Source of the DNA: Octopus sinensis
Lineage: Eukaryota
Length of the DNA stretch: 64,000 bases
Direction: 5' to 3'
NCBI RefSeq assembly: GCF_006345805.1
Contig: NC_043001.1
Location: forward strand, 43,834,001-43,898,000
Part shown: in pieces, positions 2,631-60,895 of the stretch
How positions within the stretch are numbered: the first letter of the stretch is position 1
Layout: each line of letters opens with the position of its first letter
Position numbers and translations under genes: made by a program
Notes under the pieces: model-generated
The model's input: only the letters and a program-made list of their open reading frames with translations
What the model was told of the DNA's origin: nothing
Database searches by the model: none

Positions 2631-3680
2631 TTGATAATAAGGAGAATGAAGAATTTGAACATTCAAACTTTGTTCTTTACCAGTTAGTTTATTCATAATA
2701 ATTGTCCAACACATGTTTTGATTGCACTGACTGCATATTAATATGCAGTGATTTATGCATTATGCATTATTAGTATGACCACTTCAGGATATATAAGTAT
2801 GACACTGAAGAGTAATTTTCCTCTGCTTTTAGTTTGAATTGGGTTTGATACTAGTAGTAAACTATGACATTCCTTGAGATGCTTTCTCAACTGACTGGGT
2901 AAAATCCAGCTGCAGTGTTTGTTGAAGTTGGCAGATGTTCTTTGGTAGTTGGGCTGAGGGTGGTGGTGGTGGTATTTATTAGAATACTTATTTTTGATTG
3001 ATTCTACATACTTTATAGTCACAAGGTAATAATAAAGATGCATATAAGGAATATAAGAATAGAGTTCAATTTATAAGATTATATTTAATATAACCTAAAA
3101 ACACTTTAAAGCAGTCATAATAATTAGTTAGAGGAACTTAAAATGCAACTGACTACTTCCTTTAATAACCATGTAGTTCTTACTGCCTAGTAAGTATCTA
3201 CTACTACTACTATTAAGAACTTCACAAAAAGTCAAATGATATAATCAACTCTGAAATCCATCAATATGCCTTGTGACTATAAAGTATGTTGAATCAATCA
3301 AACAACAAGTATTCTATAATTAACCCCTCCCAGCCCAACTACCCAAGAACATCTGCCAACTTCAACAAACACTGCTGCTGCTGCTGGATTTTATCTAAAC
3401 TGTTGAGAAAACTTTTCATCAAGGAATGTTATGGTTTACTACTACTACTACTACTCTCAAGCCTAATTCAAACTAATAATGGAGGAAAATTCCTCTTCAA
3501 ACAATGTCATACTTATATGCCCTGAAGTGGTCATCCTAATAATGCATAAATCACTGCATATTAATATGCAACAATATGCAGTTAGTGTGCAATCAAAACA
3601 CATATTGGACAATTATTATAAATAAACTAACTCGAAATAAACATAAAGTTTGTTCAAATTCTTCATTGTCCTTATCAAGT
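2631..3680. repeat. Diverged inverted repeat, ~400-bp arms (2631-3026 / 3269-3680)
   Basis: Arms are reverse-complementary along their length; ORF-track peptides 2753..3043(-) and 3286..3525(+) share QPNYxRTSANFNKHC. Confidence 0.85.
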
Positions 3681-4916
3681 CATTAAGAATGAAATGTCTG
3701 ATTTTGAACTGAAAGTTAATTTTACTCTATCTCAACAAAAAGCAATGCAATTAATCAAAGTATGCACCTAAATTATCAACACAATTTTGCCATTTTATTG
3801 GTAGCTTATTTATGCCAGTAGCAAAGAATTCTGGAGAGCAAGAGGTGATGAAATCACCAAAGGCTGTTTTCGCATCTTCTTCAGATTTGTTGTCTAAAGC
3901 CTGGAAAATGCGATAGTCAGTTGATGCAAGGTCTGGTGAATATGGTGGATGACTTCCAAGTTCAGTTCCTATAACTTGAGTAGCGTTCTTTGTGCAACAT
4001 GTAGTCGAGCATTGTCTTGGCTTCTCTCTATTGACCAATCTCAGTTGTTTAATTGCAAGTTCGCTCATCATTTCATCCAGTTGGTTGATGTATACATCTG
4101 CTGTAATTGACTTGCCAGGTCTCACAAAGCTGTAGTGGATGATACCAGCACTGCATCACCAAACTGACACCATTAGGTTTTTTGGTGACCATTCTTTTTT
4201 GGTTTGTGTTTTGGCACTTCGTCTCTATCCAACCACCATGCAGAATGCTTGCTATTGTTGAAAAGAATCCATTTTTCATCACATGTAACAATATGATGCA
4301 AAAATGGTTCGCTTTTATGCTGTGACAGCAAAGAACAGGAAATTTCAAGATGAAATGTCATTTGATGCTCTTTCAGTTTGTGTGGTACCCACTTGTCCAG
4401 CTTCTTTACTTTACTGATTTGTTTCAGATGGTCCAATACAGTTGGAATTGAAACATCAAACCTTGCTGCTAACTCATGTGTGGTTTGAGATGTATCCACT
4501 TCCACTACAATTTTCAGCTCATCATTATCTATCTTAGATTCAGGTCTACCATGGGGCTGATTTTCAAGAATAAAGTCACCAGACTGGAACTTCTCAAACC
4601 ACCCATGTACAGTGTGTTCATTTGCTACATCTTCACCAAACACTTCATTCATGTTTCGAGCTGTCTGGGATGCATTGATTCCATGACGGAACTCATATTC
4701 ATAAAGAACATGAATGTTTGATCTATCCATGTGTTCACAAAAATTAATTTACAAGAGAAAACTCACAAATAATCAGGCACCATGAACTGCATTTCAAAAA
4801 GTGATGATGTAACTTTTGAAATGTAAAACAAAGAATTGTTAGGATAAAACATTAGAGTTAATGACTGTCAAACTTGGTGCTTAAGAAAATTGAACATTTC
4901 ATTCTTAATAACCTGA
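3675..4916 (-). mobile_element. Mariner transposon, near full length, with frameshifted transposase (3751..4730)
   Basis: TIRs tcaagtcattaagaatgaaatgt / acatttcattcttaataacctga flanked by TA. HTH region, WVPHKL, TCDEKW and HPPYSPDLASTDY motifs. Confidence 0.93.
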
Positions 4917-7757: not shown

Positions 7758-39810
<32,053 letters not shown>

Positions 39811-43703: not shown

Positions 43704-43955
43704 TGCATACATACTTACGCACATTATTTGTGAGTGGAACAATAAAAATATGCATGACTTTTCTCAAGTTCCAAATGTGAATTTGTGCTAACTACATCCC
43801 AAAGATGGAGCCTTGTATCTTTGTTGGAAACCAGTTCCCTCCTCAGTGGAAGATTTATAATAATTAAAAAATAGAAGAGACATACACACACATATATATA
43901 TATATATATATATGAAGAGATACACACACACACACAAATATATATATATATATAT

Positions 43956-44201
43956 AAATATTATTCGAGACAAAACCACTATTTTGCAAAACAAACAAGG
44001 AAAGACTTAATCAATACATAAAATTTTAATAAATAGTCATAATTTGACACTGAATTATTGGAAGTCCACCTGAAGATTGTCGATCAAGACAAGAAACGAT
44101 TGTAGTGGCGGTTTTTTTGACTATTTATTAAAATTTTATGTATTGATTAAGTCTTTCCTTGTTTGTTTTGCAAAATAGTGGTTTTGTCTCGAATAATATT
44201 T
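43956..44201. repeat. Perfect 84-bp inverted repeat enclosing a 78-nt loop
   Basis: 43956-44039 is the exact reverse complement of 44118-44201. Confidence 0.93.
44066..44108 (+). ncRNA. Minimal type-I hammerhead ribozyme, canonical core
   Basis: CCAC|CTGAAGA|TTGTC-gatcaa-GACAA|GAAA|CGATTG|TA|GTGG; all stems pair; predicted cleavage after 44104. Confidence 0.85.
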
Positions 44202-44699
44202 TATAATATTTTACTATAAAATCGATTTAATCCTAAATCTGATTTTTTCCCTGTAAATTTGGATTTATTCCCTAATATTTATTATTATATATATATATAT
44301 ATATATATATTGATCATAGAATAAACATCAAATTCGAGTCACCATACTGCAGACATTTGATTATATATAAATATTACCATGGTTCTTAAACATGTAAAAA
44401 TGTACATACACATAAAAACACAGAAGGTAAAAATATATATGCGAATAAAATACAAATATATAGAACAGCCTATCAGAAAGGTAAATATAAACAACTAACA
44501 ATTCATAAAAATTCTAAAGCGTGTCATGCTACTAAATAAACTAAGATAAAATAAAATATCAATCGACTAAAAATATCTTTAAAAAGTTTTTTTTATACTC
44601 CCTTCATACAAGAGTATGTCCAAAAATTTCAATTCTTAAAACCATGGTAGGTTAGAATCCATGAACAAAAAGAGTTCCACAAAATCAATTCAAACACAC

Positions 44700-44779
44700 C
44701 TTCGGCCACTTCGGGAGCTCATTACCATGGTTCGATTACATTTAAAGTGCATCACAGCAACGATCCCCTCATCAGGATG
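44700..44779 (-). ncRNA. Decayed hammerhead motif with long stem II
   Basis: Minus strand CATC|CTGATGA|GGG...CCC|GAAG..GGCC|GAAG; the 3' half of the core is mutated. Confidence 0.4.
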
Positions 44780-44827
44780 AACAGGAAACATGCACAGAAC
44801 AGAACTAAAAAGTTCATACCATATAAA

Positions 44828-45985: not shown

Positions 45986-46451
45986 TAGTTTTATTTTTAT
46001 AGCGTGCTTTCACTTCACTACCGAGCGCAGCTCTGTGTGCCTTGGGTATGTGCTGTGATTTGTTGTGATGCTCTGATGGTTATTGTATGGAAAGTGTTCT
46101 GCGTAGGATGTGTGCAGTGCCTAGTAGTGCAATTTTCTGTATGTTATATGTATTTGTAAGTCCTGGTGTTTTTGTTATGTATTTGTCTGAATATTTTTTT
46201 ATCATGCCTAATGCACCTACTATGATAGGAATTGTTTCTGTTTTCAGATTCCACATTCTAGTTACCTCTATTTCCAGGTCTTTGTATTTTGAGAGTTTCT
46301 CCATTTCTTTTAGAGACACGTTGTCATCAACCGGTATTGATACATCAATTAGAAAGCATTTTTTTTCTTCATGATCTCTGACAACTATATCTGGTCTGTT
46401 GGCCTTAATTTCTCTATCTGTGTGTATCGGCATATCCCAGAGTATGGTTGT
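45985..46451 (-). mobile_element. R4/Dong-type non-LTR retrotransposon 3' end with intact restriction-like endonuclease ORF (46080..46433)
   Basis: RPDIVV...LIDVS...EKLSKY...PIIVGALG...QKIALLGTAHILRR; (TAT)n on both sides. Confidence 0.88.
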
Positions 46452-46514
46452 ATTATTATTATTATTATTATAATTATTATTACTATTATTATTATTATTA
46501 TTATTATTATTATC

Positions 46515-48289
46515 TTATTGTCTTTGCTCAACTTCTAACGCTGGAGATGTACTATGGTATCAGCTGTTCACTACCAGTGAACTAAAGTAATGCCCAATAT
46601 TTGAGTGGTTCCAAGTAGTGCTGTTTTCTGCAAGTGCTCCACCCTTATTGCAGCCCTTATTTGTTTTGTGTACTTCTCAAGATTTTTATTCACTGTTCTC
46701 ATAGTTCCAACAATTTTTGGTACTGCAGCCACCGTTTTCAGTGACCACAACTGCTTAGCCTCCCAAGCTAACCTGTTATATCTGTCAACTTTTCTTTCTT
46801 CCTTATCTCATACCTTGTTGTCAGTTGGGCATACCTATATCTATAATCCAGCATTCTTTGCTTTCTTTCTCAATTAACATTATGTCTGGTTTCCTATTCT
46901 GTATTTGATGTAATTGGTTCTTAATGCTTGCTCTTGGGCAGCACAAATTAGAGTCTCTGTTTCCAGTTTTAAATTACTTTTAGTCATCCATAGCCATCTT
47001 TTGTCTTTGTCTTATCTTCAGCATCCCTATGAAATTGTCCATGCATTCTTTTCTTTATCCACCTATTTTCAGTTTCCTTCATTCTCAAGTGCTTGTACAG
47101 TGCTTTACCTTTGCAATCTTCCATCCCACACAAGCCTGATCTTCTTACTTCCAATAGTAGCGGTTCTGTGGCATTTTTTGCATACCATGCTATGTTGTTT
47201 CCTCTGCTCTAATGTTGTGTTCACATCCAATCAGTCCTCTTTCTCCTCTTTTTTTTGGTACGTACAGTCTGTCTGTGTCACTTTTTGGGTGGAGTATTCC
47301 ATATCTAGTCAGCAACTTCCTTGTCTTTCAGTCTAAGCTATTTAGTTCGTCTACTGTCCATACAATTACCCCTGCTCCATATCTAAGGAGTGAAACCGCC
47401 CAGGTGTTGATAGCTTCAATCTTACTCTGTCCGTTTAATTTCGACTTAAGGATCAGTCTTAGTCTGCACAAGTACTCAACCTTAAAATTTTCTTTCATTT
47501 CTTTCTCCATCAATTTATCCATTTCCAATATCTCCAAGTACTTATAACCCGTCTCTTCTATTTGCTTCATAACCTCCCCCGATGGTATCACTAGCCCGTC
47601 CATACATTTAATTTTGCCTCTCTTCAAGACTAACACACCCCACTTTTTCAGTCCGAACTCAATTCAGCACTGAAAGTATACACCATAAAGTTTGAGGTCA
47701 TCCATGAATAACAAATGGTAGACTTTTCGTTGGCAGCTTTTGAATACATGCCCAGCCTTTGCTTTCCTCAAAATCAGTGTTAGTGGTATCATGCACAGTA
47801 CAAAGATCAGTGGGGACAAACAGTCCCCTTGGAAGAGGCCTCTACTGAATTCTGTTGTTCCTAGACTTGTTCCATATGCTGTCAGTTCCGTCCTCCACTT
47901 CGCCATACTTTTTCTAAGTAATCTCTCAGCATTCAATGCAATACCAAATAGATTCATGCATTCCATAATCCAAGAATGTGGGATCATATCGTATGTCTTA
48001 CGACAATCGATCCATGACATGGCTAAGTTAGTTTTCCTGTGATGGTGTTACAATAAAAACACTGGTAATTGCGCAACCTGATAATCGCTACCTTATATGA
48101 GTGACAATGAAAAAACAAAATATTGTGAATAACAGTGGTAATGAAACTGAAGCCCTTGATGGTGATAGGGTTGCACTCGGCAGGCTCCAGCTTCTTGTTA
48201 TCCAGCAATGGACCAGTACACACAGCGTGGCTGGAACAAACAAGCCAATGCTGTGGTTATGGCGTGTTACTACCTGAGCAACTCTGTAG

Positions 48290-49978: not shown

Positions 49979-50810
49979 CAAGGTGGTATCAAACAGTTCC
50001 TGAACTAGTTCTGTAGCGCACCAACAGATGGCAGCACACGGTTGTGTGCTCAGTGAGAGCTAGCAGTGACCTTCAAGAGGCAGTGTGCCAAGTGACATCA
50101 CTGTGTTGACATTACAAGTTGTAAAATTTGTATTTTGTGATCACGTGTATACTGTAGTCTGTGATTTTTGTCATTGGCAGGAAGTTGGAACAAAGAACCA
50201 ACGTGAAATCTTACGTTTAACGTTGGAAGTCTGCTACAGAGACATTGAGCATGTTTTGGCAAGCTTACAGCAATAGGGCAATGGGTTGTGCTCAATGTTT
50301 CAGGTGGTACGGGCACTTCAACTGTTGCAGTTCAAACAAGAGCATGCTTATCGTTTTTTTCTATATCTGCGGTATTGTGCATCGAGGATTCGTCCCCCAC
50401 GGCCAAACTGTTAATCAAGAGTTCTACTGCGACGTTTTGAAGCGTTCGAGAGAGGACATTCGGCGAAAGCGACCGGATCTGTGGAGTGCAAAGAACTGGA
50501 TTCTTCACAATGACAATGCACCCTGTCTCCGAGCTCTCCTCACTCGTGAGTCTCTCGCCAAAAACAACATGGTGTCGCTTCTGCACCCTCACTATTCACC
50601 AGATTTATTACCTATGGACTTCCATCTCTTCCTCAAGATGAAAAGGCAGGTCCTCGACTCGCTTACGGAAAACGATTTCCAGGCCGAATTCCAAAAGTGG
50701 CAGGAACGCTGGAACCGGTGACTATTTCGAAAGTGATGTTAAAACTTAGGTAAACAAGTCATTTTTTATATTAAACATAACTTGTCCGGGAACTTTTTGA
50801 TACTAGCTCG
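49979..50810 (+). mobile_element. Internally deleted mariner
   Basis: TIRs aggtggtatcaaacagttcc / ggaactttttgatactagct; LHNDNAPC and HPHYSPDLLPMDF motifs. Confidence 0.85.
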
Positions 50811-60179: not shown

Positions 60180-60895
60180 CGCAATTCATTCTGTCAGAAA
60201 TTTAGAAATGACATGCTGTACTGCTTGGCATTCGCACCGGAAGCTCCAATACGAACATTTCAGAGTGTTTGGGTGTCAATTTGAGAACATGTACCAAGAG
60301 TGATAAGAATCAAACATCCAGTTAACATCATGGTGTTTGGAGTGATCACTAGTGATGGCGAGGTTATGCCTTTTTTCATCCTCCCACACGGCCGCAAACT
60401 CAACACGGAGGCCTATATCAAGTGCCTGGAGGAGGTAGTACTGCTCTGGGTCGACAAGGTGGCTGGCAACAGGACTCTGCACCATGCTACACAAGCAGGA
60501 GAACCCAGTCATAGCTGTAAGACAATTTCTGCGACCACATCACCCCTAACATCTGGCCACCTAACTCCTAAGACTGTAACCTCCTTGATTATTATGTGTG
60601 GGGCACTGTTGAGCGAGAAACCACCAAAACTCCTTGTAACACCAAAGATGAACTGAAGGCTAGGATTGTGGCAGCATTCACCCACTTAAACAAGGAGGCT
60701 GTCCAAAAGAGTTGTAGGAGATTCCAAAATTGCCTGGAGGCTGTGGTTGAAGCCAATTGCGATTTTATTGAATAAATTTATTCTTTACTATTACAAGATA
60801 TTTTTATGTAATTTTGGTAAAGATATCTGTTAAAATATGTCAGTGTTAATTTTATTTTTGCGTAATTTAGACAACAGTTTATTCACTGCACCCTG
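60180..60895 (+). mobile_element. Second, 5'-truncated copy of the deleted Tc1/maT-like element
   Basis: Homologous to 13350-14051 including the same internal junction; right TIR gcaccctg|ta. Confidence 0.85.

What the first reader, a model, noticed from the sequence alone, without database searches (positions are those of the whole stretch)
43956..44201. Intact hammerhead displayed in the loop of a perfect 84-bp hairpin
Seen: zero-mismatch arms (so young or homogenised) enclose a 78-nt loop in which a fully paired HHR sits. Stem III CGATTG is one change from the palindrome CGATCG. The unit is flanked by (TA)n, and a decayed opposite-strand HHR lies 600 nt away. Inference: the transcript would be a long dsRNA stem opened by self-cleavage (siRNA/ADAR substrate or retrotransposition intermediate). 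This is the cleanest example of the fold-back ribozyme element.
Basis: partly seen in the sequence, partly recalled or inferred. Interest (0 to 1): 0.75.

Follow-up and report, generated by a model that had tools for sequence, protein, structure and literature searches.

The report
Spliced Penelope retrotransposon two-armed stub
This hairpin is one lopsided copy among roughly a thousand short stubs of a young Penelope-like jumping gene, likely made by copying one spliced, uncut RNA twice from two fixed start points, so the ribozyme in the loop is likely an accident of insertion, though the family is a useful record of how these elements build mirror-image ends.

Summary
The 84-bp perfect arms and the minimal hammerhead are real, but the unit is longer (43956-44285, with an 84-nt one-sided tail) and is not a dedicated fold-back ribozyme element. 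It is a stub of an 8-kb Penelope-like retrotransposon with Hydra-clade motifs (RT fold, GIY-YIG-like end, DKT, CxCX5C, (TA)n target). The loop starts with the element's exon 1 joined to the hammerhead exon at GT-AG sites, which points to spliced sense RNA as template (1429 exact spliced junctions). In 50 of 51 two-armed stubs one arm starts at leader 170-176 and the other at 249-252, and both arms share alleles. Only 5 of 62 loci enclose a single hammerhead; most are full palindromes. 2143 copies cross the scissile bond intact; 45 end within two bases of it, with no spike, so the mobilised RNA was mostly uncleaved. Stem III is 2 bp (8 bp as a dimer) and helix I is not predicted to form in the hairpin. 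Cleavage, expression, editing and siRNA are untested. The layout is published; this scan noted it before in other families of this genome.

The parts
43939..43955 (.). left (TA)n target tract; the last few bases cannot be told from the outer end of the left arm
43956..44039 (-). short inverted arm: copy of leader positions 168 to 85, from the inner (tail-less) start site
44037..44039 (.). TCA microhomology shared by the end of the inverted arm and leader positions 4-6
44037..44056 (+). exon 1 of the element's leader (positions 4-23); in long copies it is followed by a GT donor
44057..44285 (+). exon 2: hammerhead, arm and tail; in long copies preceded by a pyrimidine tract and AG acceptor; splice junction at 44056/44057
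44066..44108 (+). minimal type I hammerhead motif of Hydra-clade style; helix I 44066-69/44105-08, helix II 44077-81/44088-92 (U-A next to the core), predicted cut 44104/44105
44096..44103 (+). helix III octamer, 2 bp as a monomer, predicted 8-bp self-duplex with two G-U pairs (-5.8 kcal/mol)
44112..44118 (+). run of seven T where short partner arms most often stop
   Evidence: hand tally
44118..44201 (+). right arm (leader 85-168); the inner start site lies just behind it at about 44203-44209
44202..44285 (+). one-sided tail between the two start sites; outer start site at about 44282-44285; in long copies it runs on into the ORF
44286..44310 (.). right (TA)n target tract, shared with the end of the older neighbouring repeat
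44311..44790 (-). neighbour, not part of the stub: older unrelated repeat (76-81% like two other loci) with a decayed long-helix-II hammerhead at 44697-44779

Best explanation
The hairpin is a 330-bp stub of an 8-kb Penelope-like retrotransposon family, made of the element's intron-less leader (exon 1, hammerhead motif, arm, tail) joined head-to-head to a shorter inverted copy of the same leader in a (TA)n tract, and it likely arose when the element's enzyme copied one spliced, uncleaved sense RNA from both ends of a DNA cut. Shown: family identity, the GT-AG junction, two fixed outer ends used one per arm, shared alleles of the two arms, read-through of the scissile bond. Inferred: the protein (as a dimer, by analogy with the anole element) cuts both strands of (TA)n; one DNA end primes at the outer site (leader about 252, giving the tailed arm), the other at the inner site (about 172); the two cDNAs are joined by short microhomology. 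Usually both reach the RNA 5' end and give a full palindrome with two hammerheads; here the tail-less arm stops at the U7 run (or was trimmed back to it) and was joined through TCA, leaving one hammerhead unpaired. The hammerhead is likely off as a monomer and would need a partner (8-bp helix III duplex) or protein to cut.
For: Long copies carry the same hammerhead-arm-tail at both ends of an 8.0-kb unit with an ORF that starts right behind the tail. The middle ORF piece folds as a reverse transcriptase (top Foldseek hits all RTs, best E 3.7e-6) and has 84 relatives of about 700 aa; the last piece aligns with a relative whose GIY-YIG passes Pfam; DKT, CxCX5C, (TA)n and hammerhead style match the Hydra clade. 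Exon 1 is followed by GT and exon 2 preceded by AG in 3 of 3 long copies examined; 1429 spliced against 726 unspliced exact junctions, controls 0. Of 62 loci, 51 are two-armed; in 50 one arm starts at 170-176 and the other at 249-252, never the same site twice. Arm alleles agree in 25 of 25, 34 of 34 and 39 of 39 loci at three markers, expected 0.42-0.67. 2143 copies span the cut site; true ends at leader 70, 71, 72, 73 number 13, 8, 15, 9. Two RT start sites bounding the tail, extension of both strands and use of uncleaved RNA were shown in vitro for an anole Penelope element (PMC11167929).
Against: The three ORF pieces hit nothing in Pfam and the RT piece nothing among solved-structure sequences; the structure model is of moderate quality (pLDDT 74, 7 sequences). 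No unbroken ORF was seen: L073 has it in three frames and other copies are more broken. The RWK motif is KWK here and the C-terminal CxH is not met. The element is three times longer than published Hydra families. The data do not separate premature stop from later one-sided deletion of a full palindrome, nor fully exclude fold-back copying: one recurrent centre joint keeps leader +1 on the tailed arm in 7 sampled loci against 1-2 the other way. Ends at the cut site are slightly more frequent than next door (15, one a tandem duplicate, against 8-13), so a small cleaved fraction is not excluded. No public contig listed spans this locus's own joint. Splicing is read from DNA only.
Confidence: 0.72

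Rival explanations
1. Same family and template, but this copy was inserted as a full two-hammerhead palindrome and later lost 84 bases on one side of the centre by microhomology-mediated deletion.
For: Full palindromes are the commonest form (42 of 62 loci); the joint is a 3-nt microhomology; some arms show internal deletions; perfect palindromes are deletion-prone (general knowledge).
Against: The copy is identical to another locus over 249 bases, so little time has passed; stops pile up about fourfold at the U7 run (30 in 8 positions against 14-17 in 16 positions either side, hand tally), and the same joint recurs in flipped form with another exon-1 allele. Neither point excludes deletion.
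Confidence: 0.12
2. One cDNA reaches the RNA 5' end, folds back, copies itself, and the endonuclease resolves the hairpin at a fixed site, leaving the tail on one side (self-priming, as proposed for rotifer Penelope elements).
For: Explains shared alleles and the recurring centre joint with +1 mostly on the tailed arm; the tail was ascribed to endonuclease resolution in PMC8557442 and self-priming in PMC3846280.
Against: Eight loci hold only a tail-less arm between (TA)n tracts; in L085 and L090 the tail-less arm is nearly full length while the tailed arm covers almost none of it. The published version needs an antisense template, which would not be spliced, whereas both arms carry the spliced junction in most stubs.
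Confidence: 0.1
3. One reading: arm-loop-arm is itself a mobile fold-back ribozyme element whose transcript is a long stem opened by self-cleavage.
For: 30 near-full-length matches; the exact joint occurs at 5 of 38 matches; the core is well conserved (72 of 93 identical but for one helix III base).
Against: The 30 were picked for likeness to this copy; in an architecture-blind sample the form is 5 of 62, joints differ, the loop flips relative to the tail; two of the five identical joints share flanks and two are flipped with other alleles; helix I is not predicted in the hairpin; ends do not mark the cut site.
Confidence: 0.04
4. The inversion at this locus is an assembly or long-read chimera.
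For: No listed public contig spans this joint; long copies show many one-base indels typical of noisy reads.
Against: The two arms end at two fixed, different sites in 50 of 51 loci, which read chimeras would not do; a contig of an independent run holds a related arm-to-exon-1 joint, and loose ends in other runs show (TA)n at the inner site.
Confidence: 0.02

Closest known systems
Hydra clade of C-terminal EN+ Penelope-like elements (Craig et al. 2021, PMC8557442; read: abstract, passages, section 11, supplement search rows and part 2)
   Same: RT then GIY-YIG-like domain, DKT, CxCX5C linker, CxxC before the conserved E, (TA)n target, hammerhead with an extra base on each side of helix II and a short palindromic helix III; partial tandem plus inverted 5'-truncated copy plus one-sided tail (their Fig. 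2 legend).
   Different: Unit 8.0 kb with a 5.2-kb untranslated part holding two or three promoter/exon-1 repeats, against under 3 kb; tail about 80 nt against 30-40; Asn-rich stretch between RT and linker; hammerhead unlike that listed for Hydra-1_Obim, so a different family; spliced leader stubs are not described in the parts read.
Poseidon element PAc of the green anole (Frangieh et al. 2024, PMC11167929; read: parts 1-2 of 4)
   Same: Two reverse-transcription start sites bound the tail; both DNA strands are cut and extended; AT-rich target; uncleaved RNA is the main template.
   Different: In PAc the start sites lie inside the ORF and 7-40 nt apart; here they lie upstream of the ORF about 80 nt apart. 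The parts read do not show that one insertion uses one site per arm; the 50 of 51 pairing here adds that.
Penelope elements of Adineta vaga (Arkhipova et al. 2013, PMC3846280; read: passages, Discussion)
   Same: Head-to-head inverted pLTR, tail on one side, TCACT-like initiator, microhomology joints, Asn-rich ORF inserts.
   Different: They propose self-priming on an antisense template to explain intron retention; the stubs here are spliced in both arms, which needs sense RNA.
Minimal hammerheads of metazoan PLEs (Cervera and De la Pena 2014, PMC4209133; read: parts 1-2 of 4)
   Same: Short helix I, palindromic helix III suited to dimers, low or no monomer cleavage, intron end next to helix I (D. 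virilis), pairs of motifs on opposite strands 100-700 bp apart (S. mansoni).
   Different: The pair next to the core is U-A, not G10.1-C11.1; activity untested here.
Metazoan non-LTR retrozymes (PMC7229834, passages; bioRxiv 10.64898/2026.07.22.740005, part 1 of 5)
   Same: Short non-coding units with a type I hammerhead that depend on PLEs.
   Different: Retrozymes are head-to-tail tandem units cut to circles; these stubs are head-to-head, begin at a fixed 5' end before the hammerhead and are direct leader copies of an ORF-bearing element.

Membership tests
Penelope-like element, EN+ | Single ORF with reverse transcriptase | tested here: met
   YRDD motif, RT fold by Foldseek; Pfam and PDB sequence searches blank; ORF broken in the copies seen
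Penelope-like element, EN+ | C-terminal GIY-YIG endonuclease | tested here: inconclusive
   VYIGS motif; aligns (E 1e-12) with P0073 up to the start of its Pfam-passing GIY-YIG stretch; no direct Pfam hit
Penelope-like element, EN+ | Partial tandem forming pLTRs with a hammerhead | tested here: met
   L072, L073: hammerhead-arm at both ends of the 7.9-8.0 kb unit
Penelope-like element, EN+ | Inverted 5'-truncated copy and one-sided tail | tested here: met
   50 of 51 two-armed stubs; also long copies L073, L075, L076
Hydra clade | DKT in place of DKG | tested here: met
   SDKTRN in the first ORF piece (feature)
Hydra clade | CxCX5C linker | tested here: met
   CTCRDKSNC in the third piece
Hydra clade | RWK motif | tested here: inconclusive
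   KWK in this family, RWK in 4 of 4 full-length relatives viewed
Hydra clade | CCHH absent; CxxC and CxH beside the conserved E and N | tested here: inconclusive
   No CCHH seen and CYLC before E present; the last motif reads CRN, not CxH
Hydra clade | (TA)n insertion preference | tested here: met
   nearly all flanks
Hydra clade | Length generally under 3 kb | tested here: not met
   8.0 kb; the paper gives this as a tendency
Hydra clade | Placement in the RT phylogeny | not tested
   no tree with the reference sequences was built
Hammerhead ribozyme, type I minimal | Core CUGANGA, GAAA, UH with helices I and II | tested here: met
   no Rfam match
Hammerhead ribozyme, type I minimal | G10.1-C11.1 pair | tested here: not met
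   U-A; the same holds for many listed Hydra motifs
Hammerhead ribozyme, type I minimal | Self-cleavage | not testable with these tools
   genomic ends show no spike at the cut site
Non-LTR retrozyme | Head-to-tail tandem units each with a hammerhead | tested here: not met
   head-to-head stubs; tandem arrays seen (L029, L056, L064) lack the hammerhead in the repeat unit
MITE / foldback DNA transposon | Terminal inverted repeats at both ends with a fixed interior | tested here: not met
   tail outside the repeat on one side only; inner joint variable; interior flips

The most novel reading that the evidence does not exclude
This family is an in vivo record that a Penelope-type enzyme primes the two ends of one DNA break at two different fixed sites on one spliced, uncleaved sense RNA, one site per strand, with the hammerhead held silent in the mobilised RNA; its stacked promoter/exon-1 repeats make it a factory that has seeded several hundred perfect 170-bp palindromes across the genome, ready-made double-stranded RNA wherever they are transcribed.
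Probability: 0.5. Interest if true: 0.6.

Novelty: new member of a known kind. Interest (0 to 1): 0.36.

Why it matters
The locus itself is ordinary in kind. The family matters modestly: how Penelope-like elements form inverted ends, keep introns and use their hammerhead is called unresolved in PMC8557442 and PMC3846280. Here about a thousand near-identical young stubs give counts that bear on all three: one start site per arm, a spliced sense template (against the antisense-template idea, at least for stubs), and an uncleaved template. They also give exact coordinates for an in vitro priming test. Searches for 'Penelope-like' with 'twin priming' or 'pLTR', 'octopus' with 'hammerhead ribozyme' and searches listed no paper whose title or abstract start states the one-site-per-arm rule; subscription journals and bioRxiv supplements were not covered.

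Tried and rejected
Rfam: no family at gathering score in the window; at E up to 5 or 10 only microsatellite and long-hairpin microRNA models. Pfam on three ORF pieces and PDB sequences on one: blank. The RVT_1 hit of P0084 was dropped as support because it lies in a fused part that does not align with our protein. Idea that short arms end at the hammerhead cut: tested and not supported; the five arm-to-exon-1 joints there all share a CAC(T) microhomology. Idea of a cap-derived G at the 5' end: 9 of 19 arms have G before +1 but most are templated by the partner arm, so not claimed. Idea that splicing switches the hammerhead on: helix I is predicted in the spliced and not the unspliced upstream context, but downstream sequence disrupts it in both; inconclusive. 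Expression: no RNA holder listed on record; only contigs could be laid on the window stretch, which show neither ends nor levels; the splice was not seen in RNA and stays open. MITE reading rejected (see membership). Link to the neighbouring decayed hammerhead rejected: no sequence likeness to the family. Look-ups of earlier findings near the locus and by sequence returned nothing. No host gene was recognised in the window's long ORFs; introns were not modelled.

Full report
Observation. The arms 43956-44039 and 44118-44201 pair over 84 bases without a mismatch around a 78-nt loop; the 246-nt RNA folds at -133 kcal/mol, z = -21.5. The loop holds a type I hammerhead layout at 44066-44108 with the cut predicted after 44104. 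It is a minimal motif: helix I 4 bp, helix II 5 bp with U-A next to the core, helix III 2 bp. Alone, helices I and II are predicted (0.6-0.95) and helix III is not (0.04); inside the hairpin helix I falls to 0.01 or less and the hammerhead fold is 7.4 kcal/mol above the minimum. Rfam does not recognise it. The helix III octamer is fully self-complementary in RNA with two G-U pairs; among 93 family motifs 65 have CGATTG, 22 the perfect palindrome CAATTG, 6 other and none CGATCG. That fits a dimer-dependent motif as described for Penelope-like elements (PMC4209133).

The unit is larger than reported. All 30 best copies carry the same 84-85 nt on one side only; all 40 scored matches to it are 100% identical, of 653 candidates. 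In 9 of those 30 loci the loop points the other way relative to this tail, and further copies are complete palindromes with two hammerheads.

Parent element. Copies in which the hammerhead is preceded by long T-rich sequence led to L073 and L072, where hammerhead-arm-tail stands at both ends of a 7.9-8.0 kb unit. The ORF starts about 65 nt behind the tail and spans 2.5 kb, in three frames in L073. It shows KWK, DKT, YRDD, an Asn-rich stretch, CxCX5C, VYIGS and CYLC. Pfam and PDB sequence searches were blank, but the middle piece has 84 relatives of about 700 aa at up to 41% identity, models as an RT, and the last piece aligns with a relative whose GIY-YIG passes Pfam. These motifs, the (TA)n target and the hammerhead style are those of the Hydra clade, though no tree was built, the element is far longer, and its hammerhead differs from that of Hydra-1_Obim.

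The loop begins with a spliced exon. Window 44037-44056 occurs two or three times in the untranslated part of long copies, each time followed by GT (GTAAGT in the exact copies), while the hammerhead exon is preceded by a pyrimidine tract and AG, 1.8 kb behind the last donor (3 of 3 long copies). I took this lead from earlier notes on other families and checked it here. Exact counts: 1429 spliced junctions, 726 unspliced, reversed-pattern controls 0. Stub 5' ends cluster at an initiator-like site (leader +1); 1 of 62 loci (L101) extends upstream of it while still spliced. The window copy matches the leader of L032 at 249 of 249 bases.

Census. I fetched 62 of the 65 distinct places among the first 100 listed junction matches (all on contig C1; three palindromic places left out). 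51 are two-armed and head-to-head; in 50 one arm starts at leader 170-176 and the other at 249-252, never twice at the same site; the exception (L138) lacks its outer end. 11 show one arm (8 inner-site, 3 outer-site). 42 have both arms through the whole hammerhead; 5 enclose a single hammerhead as here; 4 are otherwise truncated. The two arms share alleles in 25 of 25, 34 of 34 and 39 of 39 loci, permutation p below 1 in 20000. Scaling 65 places per 100 matches gives about 900-1000 stub loci, a rough lower bound. The sample is conditional on one intact spliced junction.

Does cleavage matter? 2143 copies run through the scissile bond with an exact pattern. Arms that truly end at leader 70, 71, 72 (the cut) and 73 number 13 of 29, 8 of 13, 15 of 22 (one a tandem duplicate) and 9 of 26 pattern matches, the rest being point changes. 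A hand tally of arm-to-exon-1 joints gives 17 ends at leader 55-70, 5 at 71-72 (all with a CAC(T) microhomology), 5 at 73-77, 30 at 78-85 and 14 at 86-101 (two ends further in left out, some are internal deletions). The hot spot is the U7 run, where the window's arm stops, not the cut site. The mobilised RNA was therefore mostly uncleaved, as for the anole element in vitro; a small cleaved fraction is not excluded.

Mechanism. Most likely the element's protein binds the spliced transcript, cuts both strands of (TA)n, primes one end at the outer site and the other at the inner site, and the two cDNAs are joined by microhomology. Initiation at the 5' copy of the leader gives stubs; initiation at the 3' copy of a long transcript gives long copies. 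The two start sites and two-strand extension are shown in vitro for another clade; one site per arm is inferred from the census. Later deletion and fold-back copying remain as rivals. Spliced arms argue against the antisense template proposed in PMC3846280, for stubs at least.

Neighbour. The decayed hammerhead at 44697-44779 belongs to an older repeat, 76-81% like two other loci and unlike this family; a relative keeps the GAAA and the cleavage triplet that the window copy has lost. The two elements meet tail to tail at one (TA)n tract, which a shared target preference explains.

Independent data. Public contigs hold the element in several studies, with (TA)n loose ends at the inner site, the unspliced acceptor, and one arm-to-exon-1 joint; none listed spans this locus's joint, and none is on record as RNA.

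Verdict. Real, young, ordinary in kind: a new family of a known clade with a published layout. The counts on start-site pairing, splicing and non-cleavage are its value; this scan reached similar readings for other families of the genome, which is not independent support. Interest 0.36.

Noticed in passing
L073:3500-8700: The 5.2-kb untranslated part holds two or three copies of a 0.7-1.1 kb repeat, each with an initiator-like site, exon 1 and a donor; stubs carry at least three exon-1 alleles. Unusual length for a Hydra-like element.
   Followed up: partly
L081, L093, L110, L140 (centre of the stub), L070: 35-607 nt of non-family sequence lies between the two arms; in L070 178 nt replace both hammerheads. 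Could be captured RNA or DNA filler; not identified.
   Followed up: partly
L029/L080, L056/L057, L064-L066: Head-to-tail arrays (periods about 266, 297, 320 bp) of arm, tail and ORF start without the hammerhead.
   Followed up: no
L205/L206, L219/L220: Both arms of one insertion share a private change in helix III, as expected if both were copied from one template.
   Followed up: no
L073:2520-2790: Asn-rich stretch between RT thumb and linker, like the inserts described in rotifer Penelope ORFs (PMC3846280).
   Followed up: no
window 44311-44790 (-): Older (TA)n-ending repeat with a decayed hammerhead whose helix II region is 56 nt long; related copies in L072 and L224, both near this family's ends.
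   Followed up: partly
window 2645-3667: Nested inverted repeats of 17-32 perfect bases forming a degenerate 1-kb foldback next to a mariner-like transposase remnant at 3754-4748 (-) (family name recalled from the sequence, not from a call).
   Followed up: no
window 15430-15780: A second long perfect inverted repeat (83 bp), made mostly of microsatellite around a short repeat fragment.
   Followed up: no
window 46083-48047 (-), 50221-50718 (+), 60285-60653 (+): Remnants of a non-LTR reverse transcriptase with a C-terminal nuclease-like part, and of two mariner-like transposases (names recalled, not from a call).
   Followed up: no
L074:1-7043: A 7-kb array of a 44-bp unit directly upstream of a 5'-truncated long copy.
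   Followed up: no
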